64,000 bases of DNA, from contig JBFWPF010000010.1 of NCBI GenBank assembly GCA_050250135.1, positions 780 to 64,779 on the forward strand. Direction: 5' to 3'. The translations under genes and the position numbers were made by a program. Every line of letters begins with the position of its first letter. Positions within the stretch are counted from its first letter, which is position 1. This document shows, piece after piece, positions 3,827 to 41,459 of the stretch. The stretch comes from Parachlamydiales bacterium (GTDB lineage Bacteria > Chlamydiota > Chlamydiia > Chlamydiales > JAFEGQ01). The notes beneath the pieces are model-generated. The model saw only the letters and a list, made by a program, of their open reading frames with translations. It had not been told where the DNA came from and did no database searches.

Positions 3827-4836
3827 CCCACCGCTGGTCTTACTTCCCGTTTCGCAGCATGGGAGAGCGCGTTGATAAAGGCAATATCCCCACTGGGGAA
3901 GTTCTGGAAACACTCCTTGCCACTCGAGATCGCCTCATCATAGTCCCGGTTCTTGTAGGCAAGCTTCTGGTAGAGGAGGAGGGCCTCAGGGCTGAGCCGC
4001 TTGCGGATCTCCTTGAGGTAGGTATAGGCCTTCCCCTGCTCCCCCTTGTCAGCCCAAAGGGTAGCGGCCGATTCGGTAGCCGCAGCAAAGATCAACCCCT
4101 TACCCGTAGAATTGCGGGCCTGCTCATAGAGGCTTAGGGCCTCATCGGTGTGCCCCTGCTCCCTCATCTCTTCGGCTCGGCGGAAGAGATTCTGTACCTT
4201 CTCATCCACGTCCCGGTCGGTAACGTCGCGGACCGAGCGCCAGCCCCGAAACGACTCGAAGGTGAGGAGGAAAAAGAGGGCCCCCGCTAGGAACCAGCCA
4301 ACGATAAAAAAGGCGATCGTGGCAGCAGCGCCCAAGACCATGCTGGCAATGAGGGCGATCGAGAGGCCGCGGGCCCCAAAGATCCCCTCCAGAATCACCC
4401 GCATGAGGTGCCCCCCGTCAAGAGGGAGGACGGGGAAGAGGTTCAAGAGGGTCCAGATCAGATTGACAAATGCCCCCCCCTTGATGGCGATCTGAGCCAG
4501 AAGGGGCCAGTGGGCGGCCGTTGGAAGGAGGGCATAGCACCCCAAACCGAGGAGAAGGCCAAAAAGGGGGCCGTTAAATATTATAATAAACTCTTTAATT
4601 TTTCCGAGCTTGGGCCCCTCGCGGGCGGTAAGGCCGCCGAACATCATGATCTGGATCCGGACGCTCTGCTTGAAGGCCATTGCAGTGAGGGCGTGGCCGA
4701 GCTCGTGAACGATGATCGAGACGAGGATGACGAGGGCCATGACGATGGTCCCCCAGAGGGACTCGGTATAGAGAAAGCCGATCAGGAGGGCAAAGACCCA
4801 GAAGAGGGGGTGGATCGAGAGGGAAAACCGCTTCAT
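3703..4836 (-). CDS. M50-family (site-2 protease-like) zinc metalloprotease with a C-terminal TPR-like domain
   Basis: HELGH (HExxH) in a TM helix, a second M50 motif [12 protein letters not shown], multiple TM helices, and a C-terminal ~150-aa helical repeat region (ALSLYEQA..., [15 protein letters not shown]). Confidence 0.8.
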
Positions 4837-5702
4837 GCGAGCGCGCTCTTCATCGCCTCGCCCATTTCGGCGGGTGACTTGGCAACGGTGGCGCCCGCCT
4901 TTTGGAGGGCCTTGACCTTGTCGGCTGCGGTCCCCTTGCCGCCTGAGACAATGGCGCCGGCATGGCCCATCCTGCGGCCGGGAGTGGCGGTGGCACCGGC
5001 GATAAAGGCAGCAACCGGTTTGGAGCCCTTTTCCCTAATCCAAGCGGCCGCCTCCTCCTCAGCGCTGCCGCCGATCTCGCCGATCATCAGGATCCCTTCC
5101 GTTTCGGGGTCGCCTTCGAAGAGCTCGAGCATGTCGACAAAGCTGGTCCCGTTGAGGGGATCGCCGCCGATACCGACGCAGGTCGACTGACCAAGGCCAT
5201 TGCGGGTCGTCTGCCAAACCGCTTCGTAGGTGAGGGTTCCCGATCGGGAGACAATCCCAATCTTCCCTCTCTTGTGGATGTAACCGGGCATGATCCCAAT
5301 TTTACACTCGCCGGGGGTAATCACGCCAGGACAGTTGGGGCCGATAAGGCGGCTTTTTGAACCGGCCATGATCCGTTTGACCTCAAGCATATCGCGTACC
5401 GGAATCCCTTCGGTGATGCAGACGATCAGTTCGATGCCGGCGTCCTCGGCCTCAAGGATTGCGTCGGCGGCAAAGGGGGGTGGGACAAAGATCAGGCTGG
5501 CGGTGGGCTGGGTGGCCTTTTTTGCCTCGTGGACGGTGTCAAAGATGGGAAGACCGAGGGTGGTCTGCCCCCCCTTGCCGGGGGTAACCCCTCCGACATA
5601 CTTGGAGCCATACTCGAGCCCCTGCTGGGTGTGGAAGGAGCCAGCATTGCCGGTGATCCCTTGGGTGATGACGCGGGTTGCTTTGTCGATCAGGACAGCC
5701 AT
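4833..5702 (-). CDS. sucD: Succinyl-CoA ligase subunit alpha
   Basis: 289 aa. [16 protein letters not shown] CoA-binding N-terminus, phosphohistidine region [15 protein letters not shown]. Sits immediately downstream of sucC. Confidence 0.95.
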
Positions 5703-5707
5703 GGGAC

Positions 5708-6868
5708 CTACCGGAGGGTAGCGACAACCTTCTCAGCAGCTGAGGCGAGGTCGTCGGCGGTGATGATGTTGAGCTTGGACTCCTTGAGGAGGGCTTTGCC
5801 GTGGGAGACGTTGGTCCCCTCCATCCGGACAACGAGGGGGACGTGGATATCGAGCTCTTTGGCAGCCGCGATCACCCCTTCGGCGATAGTGGCGCAGTTC
5901 ATGATGCCGCCAAAGATGTTGATCAGGATCGCCTTCACCTTGGGATCGGAGAGGATGATCTTAAAGCCGGCAGCAACCTTCTCCTTATCGGCACTCCCGC
6001 CGACATCGAGGAAGTTGGCAGGGCGGCCGCCATAGACAGCGATGATATCCATCGTGGCCATCGCAAGGCCAGCTCCGTTGACCATGCAGCCGATGTTCCC
6101 ATCGAGGGCGATGTAGGCGAGGTCATACTTGGTGGCGGCTACCTCCCCTTCGGGCTGCTGCGTGGGGTCGTAGTACTGGGCAATCTCTTTCTGCCGGAAG
6201 AGGGCGTTGTCGTCGATGGCGAGCTTGGCATCGAGGGCGAGAAGCTCCCCCTTAGGGGTCTCAACCAAGGGGTTGATCTCGAGGAGGGAGGCGTCGGTAT
6301 CGGTAAAGGCCTTGGCCAGCCCGCTCACGATCTTCTTCCCCTGTTTGGCCAGCTCCCCCTTCCATCCCATAAACTTCATCAGCCGGACGAGGTGGAAACC
6401 CCGAACCCGCCCATCAAGCTCGATCGGGACCGTCAGGATCCGCTCAGGGGTCTTGGCGGCGACCTCCTCGATCTCCATCCCCCCTTCAGGGGAGGCAATA
6501 ATGGTCGGAGTGGCGCTCTCCCGGTCGATGATGCAGCCGATGTAGTACTCCTTGGCGATGTCGACCGGATCGGAGATAAGCACCTGATGGGCGGTGACCC
6601 CTTCGGGCCCCGTCTGGTGGGTCACCAGGTGCATCCCGATCATCCCCTTGCAGAGGGAGAGGATCTCGTCAGGAGTCTTGCCGAATTTCACACCCCCCGC
6701 CTTCCCCCGCCCGCCCGCATGGACCTGGACCTTGACCACGCCGGCCTTCAATCCGCTCTCTTTAAGAAATTTGCGAGCCTCCTCAACGGAGCTGGCGACC
6801 CCATAGCGGGGGATGGGGATCCCATACTTAGCCAGGATCTCTTTGGCTTGGTACTCGTGGGTGTTCAT
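5708..6868 (-). CDS. sucC: Succinyl-CoA ligase subunit beta
   Basis: 386 aa. [21 protein letters not shown]-grasp N-terminus and C-terminal ligase-CoA domain (NIFGGIM...). Confidence 0.95.
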
Positions 6869-6938: not shown

Positions 6939-7805
6939 ATGTTTAAGCTCGCCCGTTCATTTGGTAAAAAAATCGCCGGGATCTTTTCCACCGAGGTGGA
7001 TGAGGAGGCGCTAGAGTCCTTTGAGGAGCTTCTCGTCACCGCCGATCTGGGGATGGAGACGGCAACCGAGCTCTCCTCTTTGATCCGCAAAGGGATGCGG
7101 CGGGGGAAGACCACCGCAGAGGCGATCCTTCAGGAGATCCGGGCTGCCCTCCTCACTACCCTCCAGCAGCAGAGCCCTGAGCTCTCGACCGCTAAGCCGA
7201 CGGTCCTCTTTATCGTCGGGGTTAATGGGAATGGGAAGACCACCACGTGCGCCAAGCTGGCCCACTACTTTCAGCGGCGGGGGGAGTCGGTTCTTTTGGG
7301 CGCTGCCGACACCTTTCGAGCCGCGGCGATCGAGCAGCTTACCCTGTGGGCCGAGCGGCTAGATATCCCCCTCGTCAAGCATAAGGCGGGGAGCGATCCG
7401 GCAGCGGTCGTTTTCGACACCGTCTCAGCTGGCCTTTCCCGCGGCATCGACCGGATCATTATCGACACGGCGGGGCGCCTCCACAATAAGAGCGATCTGA
7501 TGGGAGAGCTGGCCAAGATGCAACGGGTAGCGGGCAAGGTCCTGCCCGACAGTCCCCATGAAACCCTTCTCGTACTCGATGCAACCACCGGCCAAAATGC
7601 GATCGACCAAGCGAAGGCCTTCCATGCCTCTACTCCCCTAACGGGTGTCATCCTGACCAAGCTTGATGGGAGCGCTAAAGGGGGGATGGCGGTGGCGATC
7701 CAGAAGCAGCTTGGCCTTCCGATTAAATTTGTGGGCACCGGTGAGGGGGCAGGCGATCTTGCCCCCTTTAGCGCCGAGGCCTTTGTAGAAGCCCTATTGA
7801 GGTAA
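6939..7805 (+). CDS. ftsY: Signal recognition particle receptor FtsY (short form)
   Basis: SRP-GTPase motifs GVNGNGKTTT, DTAGRLHNK and LTKLDGSAKGG. Confidence 0.9.
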   Translation: MFKLARSFGKKIAGIFSTEVDEEALESFEELLVTADLGMETATELSSLIRKGMRRGKTTAEAILQEIRAALLTTLQQQSPELSTAKPTVLFIVGVNGNGKTTTCAKLAHYFQRRGESVLLGAADTFRAAAIEQLTLWAERLDIPLVKHKAGSDPAAVVFDTVSAGLSRGIDRIIIDTAGRLHNKSDLMGELAKMQRVAGKVLPDSPHETLLVLDATTGQNAIDQAKAFHASTPLTGVILTKLDGSAKGGMAVAIQKQLGLPIKFVGTGEGAGDLAPFSAEAFVEALLR

Positions 7806-20545: not shown

Positions 20546-20647
20546 CGCATAGCCGATAATCCTAAGCGCTACCCCACGATGGCTAAGCAGCTCTCCGACC
20601 AGCTGGATGATACATTTGAGAATCTGCTCGTTAGAAGCGCTCTTCAA

Positions 20648-20804
20648 CCCCTGATTGCGACCTATCGTCCGGGGGGCGTGGCAGATGGTGGTCAGATAGT
20701 GTACATCGTGACGAGGCCAGGTCTTTAGACCTGGGTGAGGAGGGATGTACACTAAATGGCCGCCAGCTGTCGATGCCGTCTAGACGATAGGTCGCAATCA
20801 GGGG
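20648..20804. repeat. 157-bp foldback MITE-like element, copy 1
   Basis: Terminal inverted repeats CCCCTGATTGCGACCTATCGTC... / ...GACGATAGGTCGCAATCAGGGG. Internal nested palindromes AGTGTACATC/GATGTACACT and CCAGGTCT-TT-AGACCTGG. Near-identical in length and sequence to 36516-36672. Confidence 0.85.
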
Positions 20805-20809
20805 TTTAA

Positions 20810-20850
20810 CCCCTGATTATGACCTATCGTCCAGAGGGCATCTGCATGGG
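20810..20850. repeat. Solo end (half copy) of the 157-bp MITE family
   Basis: CCCCTGATTATGACCTATCGTCCAGAGGGCATCTGCA matches the reverse complement of the right end of copy 2 (TGTAGATGCCCTCTGGGCGATAGGTCGCAATCAGGGG). Confidence 0.6.
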
Positions 20851-23109: not shown

Positions 23110-23151
23110 CCCACTGCCGATGCCCTAGGAATGATAGGTTGCAATCAGGGG
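23110..23151. repeat. Partial (right-end) copy of the 157-bp MITE family overlapping the htpG stop
   Basis: ...GATGCCCTAGGAATGATAGGTTGCAATCAGGGG aligns with ...GATGCCCTCTGGGCGATAGGTCGCAATCAGGGG of copy 2. Confidence 0.55.
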
Positions 23152-29468: not shown

Positions 29469-30812
29469 GTGAAGCGCCTGATCCATGCCGATTTACGTAA
29501 GTGGAAAGGGAAGCCCAACCGTAAGCCTCTGCTTATCCGTGGCGCTAGACAGGTCGGAAAAACTCACGCAGTACGCACCCTAGCGGAGAGCTTTGAGGAC
29601 TTTGTGGAACTGAACCTGGAGAACGACCCTAAAGCCTGCACAGTCTTCGAGCCCGATCTAAAGGCTGATCGGATTCTCAGGGATTTAACCATCCACCTGA
29701 AGCGTCCCATCACGCCCGGAAAAACACTGCTCTTTATTGATGAAATTCAAGCGGCCCCCAAGGCTATTATTGCCCTCAGGTATCTCTATGAAGAGGTACC
29801 CGACCTGCATGTGATTGCTGCAGGATCGTTGCTGGATTTTGCGATTCAACAGGTCGGCGTCCCCGTTGGGCGGATAGAGTTCCTTTACATGTACCCCCTC
29901 TCCTTTGCAGAATTTCTCGTATCGATGGGCGCAAGTGGCCTATGCGGCCAAGTTCTAGAGCATCCAATCGACACTCCCATGTTCCCCCTGTTCCATGACC
30001 AACTGATTCGAATGCTCGGTGAATATCTGGTCATTGGTGGAATGCCAGAGGTGGTCAAAGGTTGGCGCGACACCCAAGATCCTGAACACTGCTTAACCAT
30101 TCAACATCGCATTCTTACCGCCTACCAGTATGATTTTCCCAAATATGCCAAGCAATTTCAGCTCAAGTATCTCGAGATTTTATTCCGCCAGCTACCGCAC
30201 TGGACTGGACAACGCTTCAAGTACTCCCAAATAGGCGAGGGTTATCGAAAACGGGAATTGGAGCCCTGCTTAGAGCTGCTTCGGACGGCTGGAATGGTTC
30301 ATCAGGTTATGCATACGGCCGGCCAAGGAATTCCTATTGGCTCTGATGTCAGATTTGATATCTTTAAGACCCTATTCCTAGATGTCGGCCTCACCCAAGC
30401 CCAGTTAGGCCTCGATCTAGCCGACTATTTTCTGAATCCCCAGGAAGCGCTTGTGAATAGCGGTGCCATTGCTGAAGCCTACGTAGGACAAGAACTGCTT
30501 GCCTATTCTCCCCCTTATAAAAAAAGTGATCTCTTTTACTGGGAAAGGTTGGTACGGTCCAGCGCAGCAGAGGTCGACTATCTCCACCAAGCGGGTCCGC
30601 ACATCCTACCCATCGAAGTGAAAGGCGGAAGAGGGAACACACTCCGATCACTCCACCGATTCCTCGAAACCCACCCCAAAACCCCCTACGGAGTCCGTTT
30701 TTCTACCCGCAACTACTCGAAGCATGACAACATCCACTCCTATCCCCTCTATGCAGTGATGCAATTCGCCAAATGGGATGGGCAGGAGGCTTGGGAGGCG
30801 CTCCTCAGCTAA
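29469..30812 (+). CDS. AAA+ ATPase with DUF4143-type C-terminal region carrying a PD-(D/E)xK-like motif (COG1373 family), paralogue 1
   Basis: 447 aa, GTG start. Walker A GARQVGKTH, Walker B LLFIDEIQ, C-terminal AEVDYL...ILPIEVKGG (D...ExK). Confidence 0.85.
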   Translation: MKRLIHADLRKWKGKPNRKPLLIRGARQVGKTHAVRTLAESFEDFVELNLENDPKACTVFEPDLKADRILRDLTIHLKRPITPGKTLLFIDEIQAAPKAIIALRYLYEEVPDLHVIAAGSLLDFAIQQVGVPVGRIEFLYMYPLSFAEFLVSMGASGLCGQVLEHPIDTPMFPLFHDQLIRMLGEYLVIGGMPEVVKGWRDTQDPEHCLTIQHRILTAYQYDFPKYAKQFQLKYLEILFRQLPHWTGQRFKYSQIGEGYRKRELEPCLELLRTAGMVHQVMHTAGQGIPIGSDVRFDIFKTLFLDVGLTQAQLGLDLADYFLNPQEALVNSGAIAEAYVGQELLAYSPPYKKSDLFYWERLVRSSAAEVDYLHQAGPHILPIEVKGGRGNTLRSLHRFLETHPKTPYGVRFSTRNYSKHDNIHSYPLYAVMQFAKWDGQEAWEALLS

Positions 30813-34097: not shown

Positions 34098-34177
34098 CCA
34101 ACCATTTTTGATTGACCAAAAGACGATCGATCGTAAAATGGTCGCGACCAAAATACGATCCATCGTAAAATGGTCGT
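34098..34177. repeat. Tandem 32-bp repeat x2 (29/32) plus a leading variant unit, ending 3 nt before the ATPase-2 start codon
   Basis: GACCAAAAGACGATCGATCGTAAAATGGTCGC (34114-34145) / GACCAAAATACGATCCATCGTAAAATGGTCGT (34146-34177), preceded by CCATTTTTGATTGACCA. Contains ATGGTCG|CGACCAA at 34137-34150. Confidence 0.85.
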
Positions 34178-34180
34178 AAG

Positions 34181-35389
34181 ATGAGAAGACGAGTCTATAA
34201 CGCTGCTATTGAGGCCCAGTTTGAGGAAGACCGGCAGATGCTCTTCCTAATGGGGCCACGTCAGGTAGGAAAGACGACAGCTAGTTTGCTTTCAGGTCAC
34301 GACGATGAGGACCTGTACTATTTCAATTGGGACGACCTAGAACAAAGAGCTCTATTAACAAAAGGGGCCTCTGCCATTGCTGAGGAGGTCGATCTCGAGG
34401 CGCTCAGAGAGCCCAAGCCTGTGATCATTTTTGATGAAGTTCATAAGGCACCCCATTGGAAAGCCCTTCTTAAGGGGTTTTTCGACCTATATGGAACGCT
34501 AGCCCATATCCTTGTGACCGGCAGTGCCCGCTTAGATGTCTACAAGAAAGGGGGAGATAGCTTGATGGGGCGCTATTTCCGTTACCGCCTTCACCCTTTC
34601 TCGGTTGCCGAACTTGTCAACCCTACACTGCCCAAAGGAGAAATTCGATCGCCAAAATCGCTCCCGAAGGCCGACTGGGAGCGTCTATTGACCTTTGGGG
34701 GATTCCCCGAACCCTATTTGAATGGGACGAGGCGCTTTTACAACCGATGGCGCACCATGCGCAATCACCAGGTCTTCCGCGAGGACTTGCGGGACCTCAG
34801 CCGGGTTCAAGAGCTTTCGCAGATTGAACTCTTAGCTGAACTGATGCGCCTGCAAGCGGGCTCTCTCACCAGCTATCACTCGTGGGCAACTCACGTCCGT
34901 ATCTCCTCCGATACCGTGCGCCGTTGGGTTGAGCTCCTACAATCGGTCTTCTATTGCTTTGCGATCCGCCCTTGGTCAAAAAACGTCGGGCGCTCCCTGC
35001 TGAAGGAACCAAAGTTCTATCTGTATGACTGGTCACTGGTCGATGACGAGGGGGCCCGCTTTGAGAATCTCGTAGCCTCTCACCTCCTAAAAGCGGTCCA
35101 TTTCTGGAGTGACTACGGCTTTGGAGAGTATGGCCTCTTCTATATCCGCACTAAGGAGAAGCGGGAGGTCGATTTTTGCGTCACAAAAGAGGGGAAACCT
35201 TGGATACTCGTCGAGGCCAAGGTGGGAAAGGAGAGGCTCTCTCCGCAGCTGGGCTATTTTCAGGAGAAGTTGGGGTGCCCCTATGCCTTTCAGGTGGTGC
35301 GCGATCTCCCCTATGTCAACAAGGACTGCTTTGCACAAGATCGCCCCCTCATTGTCCCCGCCAGAACATTCCTCTCGCAGCTGATTTAA
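34181..35389 (+). CDS. AAA+ ATPase with DUF4143-type C-terminal PD-(D/E)xK-like motif (COG1373 family), paralogue 2
   Basis: 402 aa. Walker A GPRQVGKTT, Walker B VIIFDEVH, C-terminal REVDFCVTKEGKPWILVEAKVG. Roughly half the residues are identical to paralogue 3. Confidence 0.85.
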   Translation: MRRRVYNAAIEAQFEEDRQMLFLMGPRQVGKTTASLLSGHDDEDLYYFNWDDLEQRALLTKGASAIAEEVDLEALREPKPVIIFDEVHKAPHWKALLKGFFDLYGTLAHILVTGSARLDVYKKGGDSLMGRYFRYRLHPFSVAELVNPTLPKGEIRSPKSLPKADWERLLTFGGFPEPYLNGTRRFYNRWRTMRNHQVFREDLRDLSRVQELSQIELLAELMRLQAGSLTSYHSWATHVRISSDTVRRWVELLQSVFYCFAIRPWSKNVGRSLLKEPKFYLYDWSLVDDEGARFENLVASHLLKAVHFWSDYGFGEYGLFYIRTKEKREVDFCVTKEGKPWILVEAKVGKERLSPQLGYFQEKLGCPYAFQVVRDLPYVNKDCFAQDRPLIVPARTFLSQLI

Positions 35390-35496
35390 CCTCTGATTAC
35401 ACGCTCCCATACACCTTGATCTACAGGTCTGGTCCCTTGCGTGTTATCGACCGGTTGTTAATAATGACTTTCTTAAACCAATGGAGGAATGTCGTT

Positions 35497-36432
35497 ATGG
35501 AGATTCTACCCTCCTCGTCTGAGTCGAGTGTACCCTACCGCACGCTACCGCTCGGCTACCCGGTCTTTAGCGTTGCCTTCAGTCCAGATGGGCTGATCCT
35601 CGCATCGGGAAGCACTGACCACAAGGTCCATCTATGGGACACCATAACATTGGAGGAAAAAGGCTCCCCACTCAGTGGGCACACCGGGACCGTCTGGTGC
35701 CTGGCCTATCACCCGCAAGGAACTCTTCTGGCCTCAGCAAGCGTGGACAAGACGATCCGCCTATGGGATATGGCAAGCAAAAAGGTGACGTTTGTCCTTG
35801 AGGGACACACAAGCTATGTCTACTGTGCGGCCTTCAGCTCCAATGGACAACTCCTCGCCTCTGCAAGTGAGGATAGGACGGTCCGCCTATGGGATACCTC
35901 CACCGGCAAGGAGTTGCCTTTCTCTCCGCTTGAAACGCATGAGAGCCCGGCCTGGAGCGTTGCGTGGGCCCACAACGGGAAGACCCTGGCCTCGGGAACC
36001 GGGATGGGAAAAATCCACCTCTGGGAGGCCGCAACAGGGAAAAAGAAAGGGGCCCCTGTGGAGGGACATACGGCCCCTGTCCAGAGCCTTACGTTCTATT
36101 CGGATGACCATACCCTCGTCTCGGGATCTGGCGACACCACCGTTCGTTTTTGGGATCCCTCCGCAGGGAAGGAGATCCCTCCTCCCATAACCTGGCATAC
36201 ATCTGGGGTCAACAGCATCGCCCTAGGCCATAGCGAAAAGATTCTAGCCTCAGGCAGTAACTATCCGACCATTGGCCTTTGGGACGCTACCACGAGAAAA
36301 GGCAAAAGGACCCTAAGCGGCCACACAGGTAGTGTTCAGTGCGTTGCTTTGAATCCTACAAGCACGACCCTCGCGTCGGCAAGCCTCGACGAAACGATCC
36401 GCCTCTGGGACATCAGCCACCTGCTAATTTAG
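35497..36432 (+). CDS. WD40-repeat protein
   Basis: ~311 aa with about seven repeats of ...LASGS.D.T(V/I)(R/H)LWD.... GGAGG lies 9 nt upstream of ATG 35497 (ATG 35464 is an alternative). The ORF-track start at 35176 overlaps the previous gene and is rejected. Confidence 0.85.
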   Translation: MEILPSSSESSVPYRTLPLGYPVFSVAFSPDGLILASGSTDHKVHLWDTITLEEKGSPLSGHTGTVWCLAYHPQGTLLASASVDKTIRLWDMASKKVTFVLEGHTSYVYCAAFSSNGQLLASASEDRTVRLWDTSTGKELPFSPLETHESPAWSVAWAHNGKTLASGTGMGKIHLWEAATGKKKGAPVEGHTAPVQSLTFYSDDHTLVSGSGDTTVRFWDPSAGKEIPPPITWHTSGVNSIALGHSEKILASGSNYPTIGLWDATTRKGKRTLSGHTGSVQCVALNPTSTTLASASLDETIRLWDISHLLI

Positions 36433-36515
36433 AGCTGTTACAATCTTATCCTGGGGGTGGCTAGTTATTTCCCTTCTTGCCCGACCCTGAGTATCCGTAC
36501 CCGTTAGACCTTTTA

Positions 36516-36672
36516 CCCCTGATTGTGACCTATCGTCCAGGGGGCGCGGCAGATGGTAGTCAGATAGCGCACATCGTGACGAGGCCAGGTCTTTAGACCT
36601 GGGTGAGGAGGGATGTCCGCTAGATGGCCACCAGCTGTAGATGCCCTCTGGGCGATAGGTCGCAATCAGGGG
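36516..36672. repeat. 157-bp foldback MITE-like element, copy 2
   Basis: CCCCTGATTGTGACCTATCGTCC...GGCGATAGGTCGCAATCAGGGG. Same length and internal CCAGGTCTTTAGACCTGG hairpin as 20648-20804. Confidence 0.85.
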
Positions 36673-36685
36673 TTTTATCCTGGGT

Positions 36686-36796
36686 CTAGGAGATCGCCTT
36701 CGTGACGAGCTCTTCGAGGTGGGCAGGGCCCTCGATTTTGGGGAGCATGAGCTCGCGATGGCTCTCCCTCTTCTCAATGGAGAGGGTGAGCTTCTC
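36686..36796 (-). pseudogene. Displaced duplicate of the last ~37 codons of mfd
   Basis: The minus strand reads GEKLTLSIEKRESHRELMLPKIEGPAHLEELVTKAIS*. The intact mfd ends LEKSTLSIEKRESHRKLMLPKIEGPAHLEELVTKAIS*. The central ~62 nt have a single mismatch. There is no upstream mfd sequence. Confidence 0.85.
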
Positions 36797-36908
36797 GCCC
36801 CTGATTGTCCCTGCCAGGTACGTGTTCACGAGGGGGAGTCCTCTCACTAGGGGCGGGGGCTACCCACGTGAATATGTACCCAGCCAGGGCCTTCTTGTCT
36901 CAGTTGGT

Positions 36909-38120
36909 CTAGACCAGTTGAGAGAGAAAGGAGCGGGCGGAGACGATGCGAGGGGTCGGATCAAGAAAGCAGGTCTGGTGACTATAAGGCTGATCAAAGA
37001 CAACCTGGAGGGCATATTGGGGTCTAAGCTGCATTTGAAAGTGCGCAAGTGAGGGGCTGATCTGCCGCGAATTGCCTAGCTTTACCTCGACTAGCATCCA
37101 GGGCTTTCCATTGTACGTGACCAAGAAGTCAACCTCTCGCTTCTCCTTGTCCCGGACATAGTGAAGGGTAAATACCCCCATCCCACAGTCGGTCCAAAAA
37201 TCGGTCGCCTTAAGAAGGAAACAGGCCACCATATTTTCGGCCCTCGCTCCAGGATCACTGAGAAGTGACCAATCGGTCAGGTAGTACTTGGGCTCTTTGA
37301 GAAGAGATCGGGCAACACTATGCGCATAGGGCCTTACCTCAAAACAAACGTAGAGTGAAATGAGGTGTTTGAGCCACTGCATGACAGTGGTATGGCTGAT
37401 CTGTACCTTACGAGCTAGCGAGGCATAGCTGGTCAAAGAACCGACCCCAGCCCGCAACATCTGAATGAGCAACTCCATCTGGGAAATTTCCCGAATTCGG
37501 GTTAGGTCACGCAGGTCCTCATGGAGCAGTTGATCCCACCGGTGGAGCGACCACTGGGTATGGTAGGCCTCTTCCCCTCGTAGGAGGGGATCGGGAAATC
37601 CCCCAAATCGCCAGAGGGCCTCGTAGAGGGAGTCTTCGATTTCACAAGGGGCGGGCCGAACGGCAATGGGTGTTACCTCGGGCTCCACAAGCTCTCTAAT
37701 GGTGAAGGGATGAACGTGGTGGCGAAAGTACCGCCCCATCAAGCTGTCGCCCCCTTTCTGGTAGACATCGAGGCGGGCGCCTCCCGTCACCAAAATATGG
37801 GCTAGGTTAGGATAGAGATCATATAACCCCTTCAAGAAGAGCTTCCACGAGGGATAACGGTGGATCTCATCAAAAATAAGGAGAGGGACCGGCTCTTCCA
37901 TCAGGCCAAGCTTAGCCTCCTGCCCTAGCGCTCTCCCCCCCTGCTGGATCTTGTCACGGTCGTTAGGATCATCCCAGGTATAATAGAGGACTCGAGGCCA
38001 GTCCTCCCCTACGTTGACACCTAGCGTGGTCTTCCCCACCTGCCGAGGCCCCATGACAAAGAGCATCTGCCGGTTTCTCTGGAAGTGGCCGGTAAAGACC
38101 TGGTGGTAAAAGCGGCGCAT
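36909..38120 (-). CDS. AAA+ ATPase with DUF4143-type C-terminal PD-(D/E)xK-like motif (COG1373 family), paralogue 3
   Basis: 403 aa from ATG 38120 (AAGGAG lies 7 nt upstream; the ORF-track TTG at 38141 is less likely). Walker A GPRQVGKTT, Walker B LLIFDEIH, REVDFLVTYNGKPWMLVEVKLG. The stop codon lies inside the palindrome TGGTCTAGACCA. Confidence 0.85.
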   Translation of the reverse strand: MRRFYHQVFTGHFQRNRQMLFVMGPRQVGKTTLGVNVGEDWPRVLYYTWDDPNDRDKIQQGGRALGQEAKLGLMEEPVPLLIFDEIHRYPSWKLFLKGLYDLYPNLAHILVTGGARLDVYQKGGDSLMGRYFRHHVHPFTIRELVEPEVTPIAVRPAPCEIEDSLYEALWRFGGFPDPLLRGEEAYHTQWSLHRWDQLLHEDLRDLTRIREISQMELLIQMLRAGVGSLTSYASLARKVQISHTTVMQWLKHLISLYVCFEVRPYAHSVARSLLKEPKYYLTDWSLLSDPGARAENMVACFLLKATDFWTDCGMGVFTLHYVRDKEKREVDFLVTYNGKPWMLVEVKLGNSRQISPSLAHFQMQLRPQYALQVVFDQPYSHQTCFLDPTPRIVSARSFLSQLV

Positions 38121-38154
38121 AACGGGCTCCTTCACCCACAAGTGTACCAGAAAT

Positions 38155-38316
38155 CTTCATTTGGTCGGATTTTGCCCCAAATGCCGAAATTCCGGGGATT
38201 TTGTCGGGTAATTTCTGACCAAATGAAGGTTTTTTCAGGGTTGATAATCAGCAACTTAATGAATTTTTTTTCCTTTTCCTGACTTTTTGAGTGCCTTGTT
38301 TCATTTGGTCGGATTT
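38155..38316. repeat. Structured spacer between ATPase 3 and mfd: 17-bp direct repeats plus a 12-bp inverted repeat
   Basis: TTCATTTGGTCGGATTT at 38156-38172 and 38300-38316. CTTCATTTGGTC (38155-38166) is inverted as GACCAAATGAAG (38217-38228). Confidence 0.85.
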
Positions 38317-38318
38317 CT

Positions 38319-41300
38319 CTAGGAAATGGCTTTGGTCACCAGCTCTTCGAGGTGGGCAGGGCCCTCGATTTTGGGGAGCATGAGCTTGCGATGGCTCTCC
38401 CTCTTCTCTATGGAAAGGGTCGACTTTTCCAGCTTTAGGGCGGTGATCTGGAAGCGAGAGGCAACGGTGCGGATCCGCATCAGGTGGTAAAACCACAGGG
38501 CCTCCTCTGGGGGCGTGCCGAAACGGTCCTTGAGTTCATCAAAGAGGTCGTCAACATCGGCTTCGGTAGGCGCATCCCCAAAACGGCTGTAGAACTCGAG
38601 GCGGAGGGTCGATTCGGGGATGTAATGCTCGGGAAGGTAGGCGCGCTGAGGGAATTCAAGCTTGACCTCGGTGAGAGTGTGGGGCGTTTTCCCTTGGAGC
38701 GACTGGACCATTCTTTTGAGCATCTTGCAGTAGAGGTTGAAGCCGATGGCGGAAACATGGCCCGACTGCTCCGTGCCCAGGATGGAGCCGCCGCCGCGGA
38801 TCTCAAGGTCGCGCATGGCGACTTTAAAGCCGCCGCCATGAGGGCCTAGCTGCTCGAGGACATCGAGACGCTCCTTTGAGACGGCGCTGGGAGGGCGCTT
38901 TTTGGAGGTGAGGAAGTAGGCATAGGCCCTGCGGTTCCAACGGCCCACTCGGCCGCGCATCTGGTAGAGGTCGGCAAGGCCATGCCGATCGGCCCGCTCA
39001 ACGATAATGGTGTTGGCGTTGGGGACATCAAGGCCGTTTTCAACGAGGGTAGTGGCAACGAGGATCTGAATCTTACCGGTGCGGAAGGCATGGAAGATGG
39101 TGTCGAGCTCATCGCCCGACATCTGCCCATGGGCAACCCCGATGCGGGCTTGCGGGAGGTCTTGCCGGAGGCGGTCGGCCACGCCGTAGATGGTCTCAAC
39201 GCGGTTGTGGATAACGAGCGCCTGGCCATCACGGGCAAGCTCGCGGAGGAGGGCGTTTTTGGTTTTCTCCGCATCCTCCTCGCCAACGTGAGTCTTGATG
39301 GGGAGGCGGTCTTGGGGAGGGGTGGCGATGATCGAGAGGTCGCGACCCCCCATGAGAGCGAGGTAGAGGGTGCGGGGTATGGGCGTTGCCGAGAGGGTGA
39401 GGCAGTCGACCCCTGCTCTAAAAGCCCGGATCTTCTCTTTGACCCGAACGCCAAACCGCTGCTCCTCGTCGACGATAACGAGGCCAAGGTTGGAGAAGTG
39501 GACGTCGCTGCTGATGATGCGGTGGGTGCCGATCAGGATGTCGAGGGAGCCTTCAGCAAGGTGCTTGAGGGTGGCCTTTTGTTCCTTGGGGGTGCGGAAG
39601 CGGGAGAGGACACCGATCCGAACGGGAAAGTTCTCCATCCGCTGGGAGAAGTTATCGAAGTGCTGCATGGCGAGGACGGTGGTGGGGACGAGTATCGCCA
39701 CCTGCTTGCCTCCGTCGATGACCGCCTTAAAGGCGGCCCGCATCGCCACCTCGGTCTTGCCATAGCCGACATCGCCGCAGACGAGGCGGTCCATCGGTTT
39801 GGGCTGCTCCATATCCTGCTTAACGTCGCGGATCGCCTTGAGCTGGTCGGCCGTCTCGACGTAGGGGAATTCCGATTCGAAGAGGAGGGTCTCCTCGCCA
39901 TCGGGTGGGAAGGCAAAGCCGCCGGCAATCTCCCGCTCGGCATGGGCCTTGAGCATCTCTTGAGCGTATTTTCGGATCGCCTCTTCAGTCTGAGCGCGGA
40001 CCCGGGCCCACTTGCCGCTCCCCAGGGTGTGGAGGACCGGTTTCTCCTCTTTGCCGCCAACATATTTGTTGACCAGGTAGGACTGCGCGAGGGGGACAAA
40101 GAGTTTTCCTTTAGAGGCATACTCGATGGCCAGGTACTCGGCGGTGTTCCCGTCGGTGTCATCCTTTTTGACAATGCCGAGGTAGCGGCCGATGCCGTGG
40201 TGGAAGTGGACGACGAGATCGCCGTCGGTGTAGTCGACCATCTCCTGGGGGGCGCTGCTGTAGACCGCCCGCTTTTGCTCGCGGCGGACCTTGTAGTGGT
40301 GGGTCAGCTCTGTGATAGGAAGGAGGGTGAGGCCATCCAAGGTAAAACCGCTTGAGAGGTACCCCTCGTGAACAGCGGCGACCTTGGTAATCCCCATCTG
40401 CTCGAGGAGGGCGCGGAGCCGCTTTTCTTCGCGGGAATTTTCGCAGATGAGATGGAGCTCGGTATTGTCGGGAATCCCCTCCGAGAGGGTGTGGAAGGGG
40501 TTTTTCCACCGGTAGGCCGAGAGGCGCTTGTCGAAGAGGGGGAAGGTGAGCGGATGGGGGGAGGCGCCCGAAGAGTAGTAGTCGACGCCGGGAGGAACTT
40601 CGATGTCACCGAGGGCGTCGATCGGAGTCGCGGGCCAGTAGAGTTTCTGGTAAGGGGCGGCTTTGTCCATCCAGTCGGCGAAGGCCTTGCCTCCGAGGCC
40701 GAGCGCGACGAGGCGGTCTTCAAGAGCGAGGAGGTCATCGAAGGCGATGCAGGTGTTCTCACCGAGGTAGTCGAAGAGGGTGGCGCTCTTGTCGCCGGTA
40801 AACTCATCGACTAGCGTAAGAGTGAGCTCCTTGACCTCGCCAGTTGAGCGCTGACTCCCCGGATCGAAGGGGCGGATCTTCTCTATCTCGTCTCCAAAGA
40901 ACTCGATCCGGTAGGGGGCAAGGCTGCTTAAGGGGAAGAGGTCAACGATCCCGCCGCGCACGGCAAACTCCCCCTTATCGGCGACAACAGGGCGGCGGAC
41001 AAAGCCGGCTCCCCCTAGCTCTTCGATGAGCCACTCGGGAGGGTATTCTTGCCCCACAGTGAGGTGGAGATCCCCCTTCTGGAACTGGTCGGGGGGAATC
41101 ATGGGTTGGAGGGCCGCCTGGACCGGAGCGAGGAGGATCTGAGGGGTCTTGGCCGAAAGGAGGACCTTGAGGACCGAGTAGCGATCCCCGACCACATCGG
41201 GGCTGGGGGCGATCCCCTCAGAAGGGAGGTTCTCCCAAGCGGGAAGCTCGTGGACATTTTTTTGAAAGTAAAGGAGATCCTCATAGAGGCGCCCCTCCCG

Positions 41301-41459
41301 TTCCCCCCCCGTGAGGATCAGGAGGTGCTTGCCGGTTACCTCCTGAAGAGCTCTGGCGAGGACCGCCTTCGGGGCATCCCAGAGCTCCTCCACCAGAAGG
41401 TCGTGGCCAGCGCGGGCGGCCTCTGCGAAGGGCTTTAGGAGGGGTGTGAGGCGATCCAT
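38319..41459 (-). CDS. mfd: Transcription-repair coupling factor
   Basis: 1046 aa. CarD/TRCF RNAP-interaction region and SF2 helicase motifs GDVGYGKTEVA, DEEQRFG, TATPIPRT and QLRGRVGR-like MRGRVGR. Confidence 0.95.
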   Translation of the reverse strand: MDRLTPLLKPFAEAARAGHDLLVEELWDAPKAVLARALQEVTGKHLLILTGGEREGRLYEDLLYFQKNVHELPAWENLPSEGIAPSPDVVGDRYSVLKVLLSAKTPQILLAPVQAALQPMIPPDQFQKGDLHLTVGQEYPPEWLIEELGGAGFVRRPVVADKGEFAVRGGIVDLFPLSSLAPYRIEFFGDEIEKIRPFDPGSQRSTGEVKELTLTLVDEFTGDKSATLFDYLGENTCIAFDDLLALEDRLVALGLGGKAFADWMDKAAPYQKLYWPATPIDALGDIEVPPGVDYYSSGASPHPLTFPLFDKRLSAYRWKNPFHTLSEGIPDNTELHLICENSREEKRLRALLEQMGITKVAAVHEGYLSSGFTLDGLTLLPITELTHHYKVRREQKRAVYSSAPQEMVDYTDGDLVVHFHHGIGRYLGIVKKDDTDGNTAEYLAIEYASKGKLFVPLAQSYLVNKYVGGKEEKPVLHTLGSGKWARVRAQTEEAIRKYAQEMLKAHAEREIAGGFAFPPDGEETLLFESEFPYVETADQLKAIRDVKQDMEQPKPMDRLVCGDVGYGKTEVAMRAAFKAVIDGGKQVAILVPTTVLAMQHFDNFSQRMENFPVRIGVLSRFRTPKEQKATLKHLAEGSLDILIGTHRIISSDVHFSNLGLVIVDEEQRFGVRVKEKIRAFRAGVDCLTLSATPIPRTLYLALMGGRDLSIIATPPQDRLPIKTHVGEEDAEKTKNALLRELARDGQALVIHNRVETIYGVADRLRQDLPQARIGVAHGQMSGDELDTIFHAFRTGKIQILVATTLVENGLDVPNANTIIVERADRHGLADLYQMRGRVGRWNRRAYAYFLTSKKRPPSAVSKERLDVLEQLGPHGGGFKVAMRDLEIRGGGSILGTEQSGHVSAIGFNLYCKMLKRMVQSLQGKTPHTLTEVKLEFPQRAYLPEHYIPESTLRLEFYSRFGDAPTEADVDDLFDELKDRFGTPPEEALWFYHLMRIRTVASRFQITALKLEKSTLSIEKRESHRKLMLPKIEGPAHLEELVTKAIS

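What the first reader, a model, noticed from the sequence alone, without database searches (positions are those of the whole stretch)
36686..38430. Single-gene ATPase-nuclease cassette embedded in a duplicated, synonymously recoded 3' end of mfd
Seen directly:
- The last ~111 nt of the intact mfd (38319-38430) recur at 36686-36796, about 1.6 kb downstream.
- Between the two copies lies only one gene, ATPase paralogue 3 (36909-38120), plus structured spacers.
- The central ~62 nt of the duplication differ at one position.
- In the final codons, copy A reads gag ctc gtc acg aag gcg atc tcc tag and copy B reads gag ctg gtg acc aaa gcc att tcc tag. That is six consecutive third-position changes and zero amino-acid changes (ELVTKAIS* in both).

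Inference:
- Both versions evolved as coding sequence in different histories. The inserted DNA therefore brought its own replacement mfd tail and displaced the resident one.
- That is the signature of integrative elements that target the 3' ends of conserved genes.
- Yet the insert carries no integrase, transposase or tRNA. Its only protein is an AAA+ ATPase with a PD-(D/E)xK-like motif.
- The inner boundary of the displaced copy (36797/36798) is CCCCTGATTG, the terminal motif of the local 157-bp MITE family.
Basis: partly seen in the sequence, partly recalled or inferred. Interest (0 to 1): 0.85.

Follow-up and report, generated by a model that had tools for sequence, protein, structure and literature searches.

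The report
Nuclease gene cassette duplicating mfd's tail
A single ATPase-nuclease gene of a very common but uncharacterised "defence candidate" family sits just after the DNA-repair gene mfd of an environmental chlamydia, between two diverged copies of mfd's last 36 codons; one copy is foreign, so the gene arrived from a related lineage by a recombination that kept mfd intact.

Summary
Window 36685-36796 and 38318-38429 are a 112-nt direct repeat (88% identical) of the last 36 codons of mfd. Between them lies one gene, a 403-aa AAA_14 + DUF4143 protein (PADLOC candidate PDC-S01).

- **Coding history:** ten of 13 differences are third-position and only 2 residues change (0 of 100,000 random-substitution simulations do as well).
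- **Mosaic:** both arms are strongly diverged and the centre is nearly identical (P = 5e-5).
- **Polarity:** the sister genome (Mfd 83% identical) has one tail and no such gene. Its synonymous states match the displaced copy. The displaced tail is therefore resident and the tail attached to mfd is foreign.
- **Second case:** the closest homologue (64% identical, another chlamydial MAG) is embedded the same way in a duplicated dapL tail, with the same motif at the right junction.
- **No mobility genes:** no integrase, transposase or tRNA lies in the insert or within about 15 kb.

The best fit is "insertion with long target duplication", known for restriction-modification units, followed by spread through homologous recombination in the repeat. 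The enzyme that defines the cassette ends is unknown. Self-mobilisation by the nuclease is not excluded. I rate it a new variant of a known kind, of moderate interest.

The parts
38319..41459 (-). mfd (transcription-repair coupling factor), intact, 1046 aa
   Evidence: TIGR00580 921 bits, plus Pfam UvrB_inter, CarD_TRCF_RID, DEAD, Helicase_C and TRCF. Same length as its 83%-identical orthologue P0121.
38318..38429 (-). Repeat copy B: the last 36 codons and stop of the functional mfd. Its 3' arm (38325-38342) carries six consecutive synonymous variants that are foreign to this lineage.
   Evidence: At four of the six differing final codons sister genome L066 has copy A's codon and never copy B's. 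Reproduced in Logan contig L065.
38121..38318 (-). Left (promoter-proximal) end of the cassette. It holds three copies of an operator-like motif, TTCATTTGGTCGGATTT on the plus strand, at 38300-38316, 38156-38172 and inverted at 38211-38227. The first copy starts 4 nt after the mfd stop.
   Evidence: 4 matches against 0.14 expected. Related GACnAWWTGA repeats lie upstream of all clade members examined. AATCCGACCA is identical at the left junction of L068.
36909..38120 (-). ATPase3: 403-aa AAA_14 + DUF4143 ATPase-nuclease (PADLOC PDC-S01 candidate), the only gene of the insert
   Evidence: Pfam. PADLOC PDC-S01 E = 1e-45. Exact protein P0001. Walker A GPRQVGKT, Walker B DE, and D331/E345/K347 invariant in 26 homologues. 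AF2 pLDDT 83 for the whole protein and 93 for the C-terminal domain. Fold hits Bax1, McrC, VRR_NUC, Bse634I at weak E-values.
36797..36908 (-). Right end of the cassette (112 nt). 36798-36807 is CCCCTGATTG on the plus strand, so CAATCAGGGG abuts the displaced tail. 36798-36817 matches the 3' coding end of paralogue 2 at 18/20.
   Evidence: The same motif (CAATGAGGAG) abuts the displaced tail in L068, and only these 2 of 83 loci have it within 200 nt downstream. The fold is not significant, z = -1.4.
36686..36796 (-). Repeat copy A: displaced resident mfd tail (36 codons and stop), no longer attached to a gene body
   Evidence: At four of the six differing final codons it has exactly sister L066's codon (ctc, gtc, gcg, atc). 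Called as a 47-aa ORF only on contig L064.
36515..36675 (.). MITE copy (31-nt terminal inverted repeats, termini CCCCTGATTG) inserted about 10 nt downstream of the displaced tail. It is a neighbour, not part of the cassette.
   Evidence: Inverted repeat I1. 91% identical copy at 20647-20807. Flanks shown.
34114..35389 (+). Paralogue 2 cassette: two 31-nt palindromic operators (34114-34176) and a 402-aa AAA_14 + DUF4143 gene (34181-35389), 52% identical to ATPase3 and convergent with mfd. No flanking repeat.
   Evidence: An orthologue lies convergent to mfd in L066.

Best explanation
**What it is.** ATPase3, with its own operator and promoter region, is a discrete accessory cassette of about 1.5 kb. 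It has conserved ends: AATCCGACCAWWTG on the left and CAATSAGGRG on the right. It entered this lineage at the 3' end of mfd with a long (112-bp) target duplication.

**Shown.**
- The insert is absent from the sister lineage.
- The two tail copies have separate coding histories.
- The displaced copy keeps the resident 3' arm, and the mfd-attached copy carries a foreign 3' arm.
- The centre of the repeat is homogenised.

**Inferred, step 1.** The present mosaic was made by RecA-type homologous recombination inside the mfd-tail homology. There are two possible routes. One is a single Campbell-type crossover of a circularised cassette that carried an mfd tail captured from a closely related donor. 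The other is a double crossover with donor DNA that already had the arrangement mfd-tail / cassette / tail. In the second route the left arm pairs with mfd and the right arm pairs with the recipient's own tail. The near-identical 62-68-nt centre is the crossover or heteroduplex-conversion tract.

**Inferred, step 2.** The duplication keeps mfd intact. It gives the cassette two portable homology arms for spreading among relatives whatever lies downstream. It also allows precise loss by repeat-repeat recombination.

**Inferred, step 3.** The rarer move to a new target (mfd here, dapL in L068) must use an end-specific reaction, because both ends are conserved at two unrelated targets. Its enzyme is not identified.

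**The protein.** It is an ATP-dependent DNA nuclease with a helical DNA-binding region. It probably binds the GACnAWWTGA operators to autoregulate. Its cellular role (defence or selfish maintenance) is untested.
For: - **Repeat, frame and differences:**
- **Synonymous bias and mosaic statistics:**
- **Outgroup polarity:** at four of the six differing final codons L066 has copy A's codon (a fifth shares only A's third base); its Arg-Lys codon pair agrees with copy B.
- **Empty sites:** L066 has a single tail and no ATPase3. L067 has mfd abutting PNP. Synteny alaS-mfd...PNP-efp is kept.
- **No recombinase or tRNA nearby:**
- **Second instance:** L068, ATPase 64% identical, lies between 56-nt repeats (82% identical) of the dapL 3' end. 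The second copy continues as an intact alternative tail.
- **Shared junction motifs:**
- **Tight placement:** cassettes of the clade start 4-35 nt after the upstream stop codon and end at the convergent gene, as expected once displaced tails decay.
- **Precedent:** nuclease-encoding RM units inserted with 30-420-bp target duplications and no mobility gene, often overlapping gene 3' ends (PMC2853133).
Against: - Homologous recombination alone does not explain why both cassette ends are conserved at two different targets.
- No donor genome with mfd-tail B next to ATPase3 was found.
- Support for the 5' side of the reciprocal mosaic rests on one informative site.
- Only 2 of 87 family loci show a displaced tail, so generality is limited to the closest subclade.
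- The right junction is documented only by the window contig and L064, which may come from the same data. The Logan contig stops 27 nt short of it.
- In L068 the differences are half non-synonymous, and outgroups were too distant to polarise them.
Confidence: 0.5

Rival explanations
1. Autonomous homing-type cassette. The ATPase-nuclease cuts naive target tails. The break is repaired from an occupied allele, whose two tail copies supply both homology arms. The synonymous changes in the attached tail make occupied sites immune to re-cutting.
For: - Nuclease and ATPase active sites are strictly conserved, with a PD-(D/E)xK fold.
- The unit is compact and carries its own promoter and operators.
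- The same end motifs occur at two independent junctions.
- Six consecutive synonymous changes lie next to the insertion point.
- No other mobility gene is present.
Against: - Related proteins (50-64% identical) sit next to unrelated genes: mfd, dapL, an MFS transporter, an M50 peptidase, a HAD hydrolase.
- Only 2 of 87 loci show the signature.
- Each cassette type is single-copy.
- The 5' arm is as diverged as the 3' arm, so the changes look like ordinary saturated divergence, not targeted recoding.
- No cleavage data exist. One PDC-S01 gene tested elsewhere gave no phage protection, and nothing is known of its substrates.
Confidence: 0.15
2. Site-specific integration by a tyrosine or serine recombinase supplied in trans (host Xer-like, or from another element). 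The 62-68-nt near-identical centre would be the att core, and the cassette would be a minimal integrative module carrying a replacement tail.
For: - The architecture is diverged arm, identical core, diverged arm.
- The element-side tail restores the gene. The resident tail is displaced, as at attR of islands in tRNA or protein genes.
- The ends are defined.
Against: - No integrase lies in the insert or within about 15 kb.
- The two cases have unrelated repeat sequences (mfd vs dapL) and different repeat lengths (112 vs 56 nt), so there is no common core.
- Homology extends on both sides of any possible crossover point, which integrase sites do not need.
Confidence: 0.12
3. Transposase-assisted (one-ended) mobilisation. 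The right end of the cassette is a terminus recognised by the transposase that moves the local MITE family, and this reaction created the junction with mfd codon -36.
For: CCCCTGATTG(T) at 36798-36808 equals the MITE terminus at 36516-36526 (11/11). The motif is over-represented in the window: 11 matches against 3.2 expected. An analogous motif sits at the L068 junction.
Against: - Only 11 nt match, and the rest of the 31-nt terminal repeat is absent.
- There is no inverted partner at the left end and no short target-site duplication.
- The same 20 nt match the conserved PLIVPAR-coding end of ATPase paralogues better, at 18/20.
- No transposase was found among the genes scanned within about 15 kb of the insert.
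Confidence: 0.06
4. Assembly artefact. Two strains, one with mfd-tail B-ATPase3 and one with mfd-tail A-MITE, were threaded into one contig through the shared core.
For: - The sequence is a metagenome assembly.
- The Logan contig begins inside the shared core and ends before the right junction.
- Contig L064 diverges from the window at the MITE.
Against: - Upstream of codon -36, copy A joins non-mfd sequence with no shared k-mer that could cause a false join.
- The same junctions occur in contig L064.
- No second mfd more than 83% identical appears in the protein collection.
- An analogous structure exists in an unrelated MAG.
Confidence: 0.05
5. In-situ tandem duplication of the tail followed by drift, with no foreign DNA involved.
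For: Direct repeats flanking an insert can arise from staggered breaks (precedent in PMC2853133).
Against: - The displaced copy would drift at all codon positions. Observed amino-acid changes number 2, against more than 2 in every one of 100,000 simulations.
- The differences are clustered in the arms (P = 5e-5).
- The derived states are in the functional copy, not the displaced one.
Confidence: 0.01

Closest known systems
Insertion with long target duplication of restriction-modification gene units (Nobusato/Kobayashi; Furuta et al. 2010, PMC2853133)
   Same: A nuclease-encoding accessory unit with no integrase or transposase. It is flanked by direct repeats longer than 30 bp that correspond to a single-copy target in an empty-site relative. 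The repeat often overlaps the 3' end of a gene, and the insert's GC content differs from that of the host.
   Different: - The cargo is not an RM system. It is one AAA_14-DUF4143 (PDC-S01) gene.
- The repeats here are 12% diverged in a synonymous, mosaic pattern, which shows that one copy came from another lineage.
- Both cassette ends carry motifs conserved between two events.
Integrase-borne genomic islands and prophages that integrate into the 3' ends of tRNA or protein genes (established knowledge)
   Same: The element supplies a replacement 3' end, the resident end is displaced downstream, and an identity block is flanked by diverged sequence.
   Different: No recombinase gene is present. 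The unit is only 1.5 kb with one gene. Homology extends on both sides of the putative crossover. There is no common core between the two cases.
Free-standing homing endonuclease genes, for example seg/mob genes of T-even phages (established knowledge)
   Same: A single nuclease gene lies between conserved genes. Flanking markers are co-converted from the donor. Sequence differences occur at the putative target next to the gene.
   Different: Homing replaces the target and does not duplicate it. The family is not a recognised homing-endonuclease family. No cleavage specificity is known. Relatives occupy unrelated sites.
C-terminal displacement in Rhs/CdiA toxin loci ('orphan' modules) (established knowledge)
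   Same: Incoming DNA recombines through homology with the gene body, and the old 3' end stays downstream as an orphan fragment.
   Different: Here the new and old tails encode the same peptide. The payload is a separate gene, not a new toxin tip.
PDC-S01 / COG1373 AAA_14-DUF4143 proteins; functionally analogous to McrBC (AAA+ plus PD-(D/E)xK)
   Same: Domain order, motifs and HMM matches all fit. PDC-S01 is described as the fourth most common defence candidate, an ATPase fused to PD-(D/E)xK (PMC12988326).
   Different: No function has been shown for the family. One member tested against T4, T5 and T7 was not among the protective candidates (bioRxiv 10.1101/2024.09.26.614923). The papers found here do not report mobility with target duplication.

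Membership tests
PDC-S01 / AAA_14-DUF4143 (COG1373) ATPase-nuclease family | N-terminal AAA_14 P-loop domain with Walker A and B | tested here: met
   PF13173 E = 8.7e-24. GPRQVGKT and DE are invariant in 26 homologues. AAA+ fold hits include RuvB, ORC/Cdc6, RFC and MuB.
PDC-S01 / AAA_14-DUF4143 (COG1373) ATPase-nuclease family | C-terminal DUF4143 domain of the PD-(D/E)xK superfamily with D...(D/E)xK | tested here: met
   PF13635 E = 1.2e-24. D331, E345 and K347 are invariant. Topology is alpha-beta-beta-beta-alpha-beta at pLDDT 93. The top Foldseek hits are PD-(D/E)xK nucleases, but only at E = 0.013-0.15. The family is listed in the superfamily by PMC3424549.
PDC-S01 / AAA_14-DUF4143 (COG1373) ATPase-nuclease family | Match to the PADLOC PDC-S01 models | tested here: met
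   PDLC04790 E = 1e-45, covering residues 16-375.
PDC-S01 / AAA_14-DUF4143 (COG1373) ATPase-nuclease family | Anti-phage activity | not testable with these tools
   The literature calls it an unvalidated candidate. One tested member was not among the protective ones.
Insertion with long target duplication (Furuta et al. 2010 criteria) | Flanking direct repeats longer than 30 bp that align to a single copy in a genome without the insert | tested here: met
   112-nt repeats. L066 has one copy only.
Insertion with long target duplication (Furuta et al. 2010 criteria) | Insert shorter than 20 kb with no mobility-related gene | tested here: met
   The insert is 1.52 kb with one gene. There is no tRNA, and no integrase or transposase among the genes scanned within 15 kb.
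Insertion with long target duplication (Furuta et al. 2010 criteria) | Insert contains both R and M genes of a restriction-modification system | tested here: not met
   The only gene is AAA_14 + DUF4143, with no methyltransferase. It works like this class but is not an RM unit.
Integrase-mediated integrative element at a gene 3' end | Element-encoded tyrosine or serine recombinase | tested here: not met
   No such ORF or domain lies in 36797-38318 or in the neighbouring genes scanned.
Integrase-mediated integrative element at a gene 3' end | attL/attR direct repeats with an identity core, and an element-borne replacement of the target's 3' end | tested here: met
   The core of 62-68 nt has 1 difference. 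The attached 3' arm is foreign and the displaced arm is resident.
Free-standing homing endonuclease gene | Sequence-specific cleavage of the empty target allele, with the occupied allele immune | not testable with these tools
   Only indirect evidence: synonymous differences next to the insertion point.
Free-standing homing endonuclease gene | Close relatives occupy the same target in other genomes | tested here: not met
   The nearest homologues lie next to dapL, an IF-2B-family gene, an MFS transporter, an M50 peptidase, a HAD hydrolase and a kinase.
TIR transposon / MITE | Terminal inverted repeats at both ends and a short target-site duplication | tested here: not met
   No inverted repeat joins the cassette ends. 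Only an 11-nt one-sided match to the MITE terminus exists.

The most novel reading that the evidence does not exclude
AAA_14-DUF4143 (PDC-S01) genes, counted as the fourth most common 'defence system' of prokaryotes, would at least in this chlamydial subclade be self-mobilising single-gene elements. The ATPase-nuclease would recognise its own end motifs and a target at the 3' end of a conserved gene. It would insert with a long target duplication that supplies a replacement tail, and the duplicated tails would then serve as homology arms for homing into relatives. That would be a new class of minimal mobile element with no integrase or transposase. It would also mean that part of the 'defence' census counts selfish DNA.
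Probability: 0.15. Interest if true: 0.85.

Novelty: new variant of a known kind. Interest (0 to 1): 0.55.

Why it matters
PDC-S01 proteins number in the tens of thousands in genome surveys (PMC12988326), yet no function or behaviour has been shown for them. This locus gives a clean natural experiment:
- a dated, polarised insertion, with a resident and a foreign tail and an empty sister site;
- a second parallel event at another gene;
- conserved cassette ends.

It shows that such genes move between related intracellular bacteria as 1.5-kb single-gene units without disrupting an essential neighbour. It extends the little-understood "long target duplication" mode beyond restriction-modification systems. 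It also offers concrete substrates for testing what the ATPase-nuclease does: the A and B tails, the operator motif and the end motifs. If the protein proved to drive the insertion, it would define a new kind of mobile element.

Tried and rejected
**Searches for close relatives.**
- The exact look-up of Mfd found nothing.
- The genome-contig scan found no close Mfd relative (best about 52%). The useful sister (83%) came only from the protein search.

**Broad flank-repeat screen.**
- Ten of 71 loci had flanking repeats, against 4 of 209 mismatched controls.
- Most distant-family hits proved heterogeneous: low-complexity repeats (L101), duplicated operators (L072), epimerase tail fragments with no intact gene (L084), a hairpin (L114).
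- Repeats in L099 and L125 looked like tRNA 3' halves, but ARAGORN called no tRNA there.
- The protein-level screen kept only the window and L068.

**Polarising the L068 repeats.** DapL outgroups were at most 55% identical and uninformative.

**Breakpoint inside mfd.** GC3 along mfd showed none.

**'Structured spacers'.** Fold z-scores were -1.4 and -1.7. Rfam gave only chance miRNA hits. No promoter-like site and one terminator-like site were found, which is below chance.

**The spacer as a hidden MITE.** Only 11 nt match.

**Structure searches.**
- The PDB sequence search with the family profile gave no hit.
- The full-length fold search returned only AAA+ proteins, so the C-terminal domain was modelled separately.

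**In-situ duplication plus drift.** Rejected by simulation.

**Plasmid or phage carriage.** Rare: 7 plasmid and 3 phage records.

Full report
**1. Observation.**

The claimed duplication is real. The repeat finder reports one outstanding direct repeat, 36685-36796 vs 38318-38429: 112 nt, 88% identical, 1633 nt apart. Self-BLAST gives E = 2e-36.

On the minus strand both copies translate to the same 36-residue peptide ending ...LPKIEGPAHLEELVTKAIS*. They differ at two residues, L/S and E/K.

Copy B is the genuine end of a full-length mfd, 38319-41459 (TIGR00580, 921 bits). Upstream of codon -36, copy A abuts unrelated sequence.

The 13 nucleotide differences fall at codon positions 1/2/3 = 2/1/10. 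Nine codons change synonymously, including six consecutive ones just before the last sense codon.

In 100,000 simulations of 13 random substitutions, none gave as few as 2 amino-acid changes. The distribution is also mosaic. Third-position differences hit codons 1, 3, 5, 7 and 30-35, leaving 22 codons untouched (P = 5e-5). So both arms are close to synonymous saturation, while the central 62-68 nt are almost identical.

**2. What lies between the copies.**

The only credible gene is 36909-38120 on the minus strand. It encodes 403 aa with AAA_14 (E = 8.7e-24) and DUF4143 (E = 1.2e-24) domains. It matches the PADLOC candidate PDC-S01 (E = 1e-45).
- Walker A (GPRQVGKT), Walker B (DE) and a D331...E345-x-K347 triad are invariant across 26 homologues.
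- An AlphaFold model (pLDDT 83) shows an AAA+ core, a helical middle region and a C-terminal alpha-beta-beta-beta-alpha-beta domain.
- Modelled alone, that domain reaches pLDDT 93.
- Its best Foldseek matches are PD-(D/E)xK nucleases: Bax1, McrC, YaeQ, VRR_NUC and Bse634I. The E-values are weak, 0.013-0.15.
- DUF4143 is listed in that superfamily (PMC3424549).

The 198-nt upstream spacer carries three copies of TTCATTTGGTCGGATTT, two direct and one inverted (4 matches against 0.14 expected).

Neither spacer folds better than shuffled sequence (z = -1.4 and -1.7). Rfam finds nothing real. The motifs therefore read as protein-binding operators, not as RNA structure.

There is no tRNA in the window. 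The genes scanned within about 15 kb are housekeeping: lepA, htpG, an SNF-family symporter, nadE, efp, PNP, alaS and an ATP/ADP translocase. None is an integrase or transposase.

**3. Source and assemblies.**

Mfd's best hits are Chlamydiota at 51-56% identity, and the window encodes a TLC ATP/ADP transporter.

The exact ATPase (P0001) occurs on NCBI MAG contig JBFXKE010000260.1 (L064). That contig is 100% identical to window 39532-36514 and includes both tails. It then diverges exactly at the outer end of the neighbouring MITE.

A Logan contig of run SRR27751816 (L065) equals 38386-36824. It independently confirms the recoded tail B and its junction with the cassette. It ends 27 nt before the right junction, for unknown reasons.

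**4. Empty sites and polarity.**

One close relative exists: P0121, 83% identical and also 1046 aa. Its contig L066 keeps alaS-mfd. It has a single mfd tail and no ATPase3. Downstream it has 466 nt of spacer and then a convergent orthologue of the window's paralogue 2.

A more distant relative, L067 (55% identical), has mfd directly overlapping the convergent PNP gene. In the window about 5 kb separates PNP and mfd. It holds a hydrolase, the paralogue 2 cassette, a WD40 gene, a MITE, tail A and the ATPase3 cassette.

L066's final codons are gag ctc gtc gtt agg gcg atc tcc. At four of the six codons where A and B differ, L066 has exactly copy A's codon (ctc, gtc, gcg, atc). A fifth (agg vs aag) shares only copy A's third base. 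None matches copy B. At the E/K site L066 has copy B's Lys codon.

The displaced copy A therefore carries the resident 3' arm, and the mfd-attached copy B carries a foreign one. The single informative 5' site is consistent with a reciprocal mosaic.

The donor must have been a closer relative than L066. Its peptide is identical over the last 21 residues, whereas L066 differs from the window's tail at about a third of positions.

**5. A second, independent case.**

The closest homologue, P0003 (64% identical), lies in another chlamydial MAG (L068), downstream of dapL.
- It is flanked by a 56-nt direct repeat, 5669-5724 vs 7196-7251, 82% identical, spacing 1527 nt.
- The first copy is the 3' end of dapL.
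- The second copy, just after the ATPase, continues in frame as an alternative DapL tail: HLRLSAFAPGKQILAPCERIQTKTATPC* (tblastn E = 3.5e-9).
- Half of the codon differences are non-synonymous.
- DapL outgroups (at most 55% identical) could not show which copy is resident.

The junctions are alike in the two cases.
- Left: AATCCGACCA(WW)TG begins 4 nt after the mfd stop in the window. In L068 it lies inside the new DapL tail.
- Right: CAATCAGGGG in the window and CAATGAGGAG in L068 abut the displaced tail.
- Of 83 family loci, only these two have that motif within 200 nt downstream.
- My own estimate of the chance of such a match at a fixed junction is about 3e-4.

**6. How general is it?**

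In 71 usable loci from metagenomes and MAGs, 10 had flanking direct repeats, against 4 of 209 mismatched controls. The distant cases are heterogeneous. A protein-level screen for displaced tails in 87 loci retained only the window and L068.

Other members of the clade (L069, L150-L154, paralogue 2) are single genes wedged between housekeeping genes. Typically they start 4-35 nt after a co-oriented upstream stop codon, with their own variant of a GACnAWWTGA operator. They end at the stop of a convergent gene. This is what older insertions would look like after the displaced tail has decayed.

The family is rare on plasmids and phages: 7 and 3 records. One is a Rhabdochlamydia plasmid.

**7. Mechanism.**

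In-situ duplication followed by drift is excluded (and the outgroup comparison).

A cassette-encoded integrase or transposase is excluded: no such gene and no terminal inverted repeats.

The best-supported reading has two steps.
- **Insertion.** The cassette inserted with a long target duplication.
- **Recombination within the mfd-tail homology.** This was either a Campbell-type single crossover of a circle carrying a captured donor tail, or a double crossover with donor DNA that already had the tail / cassette / tail layout. It produced the arms-diverged, core-identical mosaic.

The repeat preserves mfd and provides portable homology arms. It also permits precise excision.

Conserved ends at two unrelated targets imply an additional end-specific step whose enzyme is unknown.

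The candidates for that step, each weakly supported, are:
- the ATPase-nuclease itself (the homing-like model);
- a recombinase acting in trans;
- the transposase of the local MITE family, whose terminus CCCCTGATTG equals the right-end motif over 11 nt.

The same 20 nt also match the conserved PLIVPAR-coding 3' end of paralogue 2 at 18/20. That link is therefore unresolved.

An assembly chimera is unlikely: there is no shared k-mer at the copy-A junction, the same junctions occur in L064, and a parallel structure exists in another MAG. It still needs read-level confirmation.

**8. Comparison with what is known.**

The closest described phenomenon is 'insertion with long target duplication' of restriction-modification units. 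These are nuclease-bearing units without mobility genes, flanked by 30-420-bp repeats that are single-copy in empty genomes, often overlapping gene 3' ends (PMC2853133).

This locus meets those criteria except that the cargo is not an RM system.

It resembles att-site integration in supplying a replacement tail, but it lacks a recombinase. It resembles free-standing homing endonuclease genes in flank co-conversion, but it duplicates the target instead of replacing it.

PDC-S01 itself is reported as the fourth most common defence candidate and as unvalidated (PMC12988326). One member tested against T4, T5 and T7 was not among the protective systems. The papers found here do not report mobility for the family.

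**9. Verdict.**

I rate it a new variant of a known kind, with moderate interest (0.55). The novel reading, a self-mobilising single-gene element, keeps about 15% probability.

Noticed in passing
window 29469-30812 (+): A third, distant AAA_14/DUF4143-type gene (447 aa; PADLOC PDC-S01 models E = 9e-136; only 26% identical to ATPase3 over the N-terminus). It lies between nadE and the epmA-efp pair. At that place relative L067 has three Legionella_OMP genes instead. This would be another single-gene insertion or substitution of the same broad family in one 64-kb window.
   Followed up: partly
window 36515-36675, 20647-20807 (with adjacent partial copy 20808-20846), and about 23120-23151: A MITE family of about 160 nt with 31-nt terminal inverted repeats ending CCCCTGATTG. 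Two full copies are 91% identical, and there are partial copies. One copy sits about 10 nt after the displaced mfd tail. No transposase turned up among the genes scanned in the window.
   Followed up: partly
L064 3020-4665 vs window 36514 leftwards: NCBI contig JBFXKE010000260.1 is 100% identical to the window up to the outer end of the MITE. It then continues into an AbiEii gene and a Na/H-antiporter gene instead of the WD40 gene. This is either a repeat-induced assembly join or a real structural polymorphism. The same sequence is binned under two taxon labels, Obscuribacterales and Parachlamydiales.
   Followed up: partly
L066 8169-8204 and 8387-8402: The sister genome lacks ATPase3. Ten nt after its mfd stop it has a copy of the 31-nt palindromic operator that precedes paralogue 2 in the window (34114-34176; 35/36 identical). 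About 229 nt after the stop it has a 16/16 match to the proximal ATPase3 operator. These may be relics of earlier cassettes, which would make the mfd 3' end a recurrent insertion site.
   Followed up: partly
window 38121-38318 and 34114-34176; L068 5730-5913; L069 5825-5952; L150, L151, L152, L154 upstream regions: Every cassette of the clade has its own variant of a repeated or palindromic GACnAWWTGA motif, lying between the upstream stop codon and the ATG. Motif and gene vary together, which suggests autoregulation by the protein's own DNA-binding region.
   Followed up: partly
L065 end = window 36824: The Logan contig from SRR27751816 stops 27 nt before the right junction, at a point where no long repeat is evident. 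This could mean an alternative continuation in the reads (another junction or an excised form), or just a coverage gap.
   Followed up: no
window 35176-36432 (+); L066 593-2353: Eukaryote-like repeat proteins flank the locus. A WD40 beta-propeller gene lies between paralogue 2 and the MITE in the window and is absent from the equivalent place in L066. A BTB-domain protein lies next to alaS in L066.
   Followed up: no
L099 3276-3433 / 4851-4997; L125 2462-2505 / 4188-4231: Two distant family members (45% identical) are flanked by direct repeats (84-89% identical, spacing 1.6-1.7 kb) that look like tRNA 3' halves. ARAGORN calls no tRNA in either locus. These may be integration scars or a tRNA-derived repeat element.
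   Followed up: partly
plasmids NZ_CP075588.1 (Ca. Rhabdochlamydia oedothoracis) and NZ_CP104165.1 (Ca. Bandiella numerosa): Homologues of ATPase3 (39% and 47% identical) are carried on plasmids of intracellular symbionts. Such plasmids are a possible vehicle for transfer between such bacteria.
   Followed up: no
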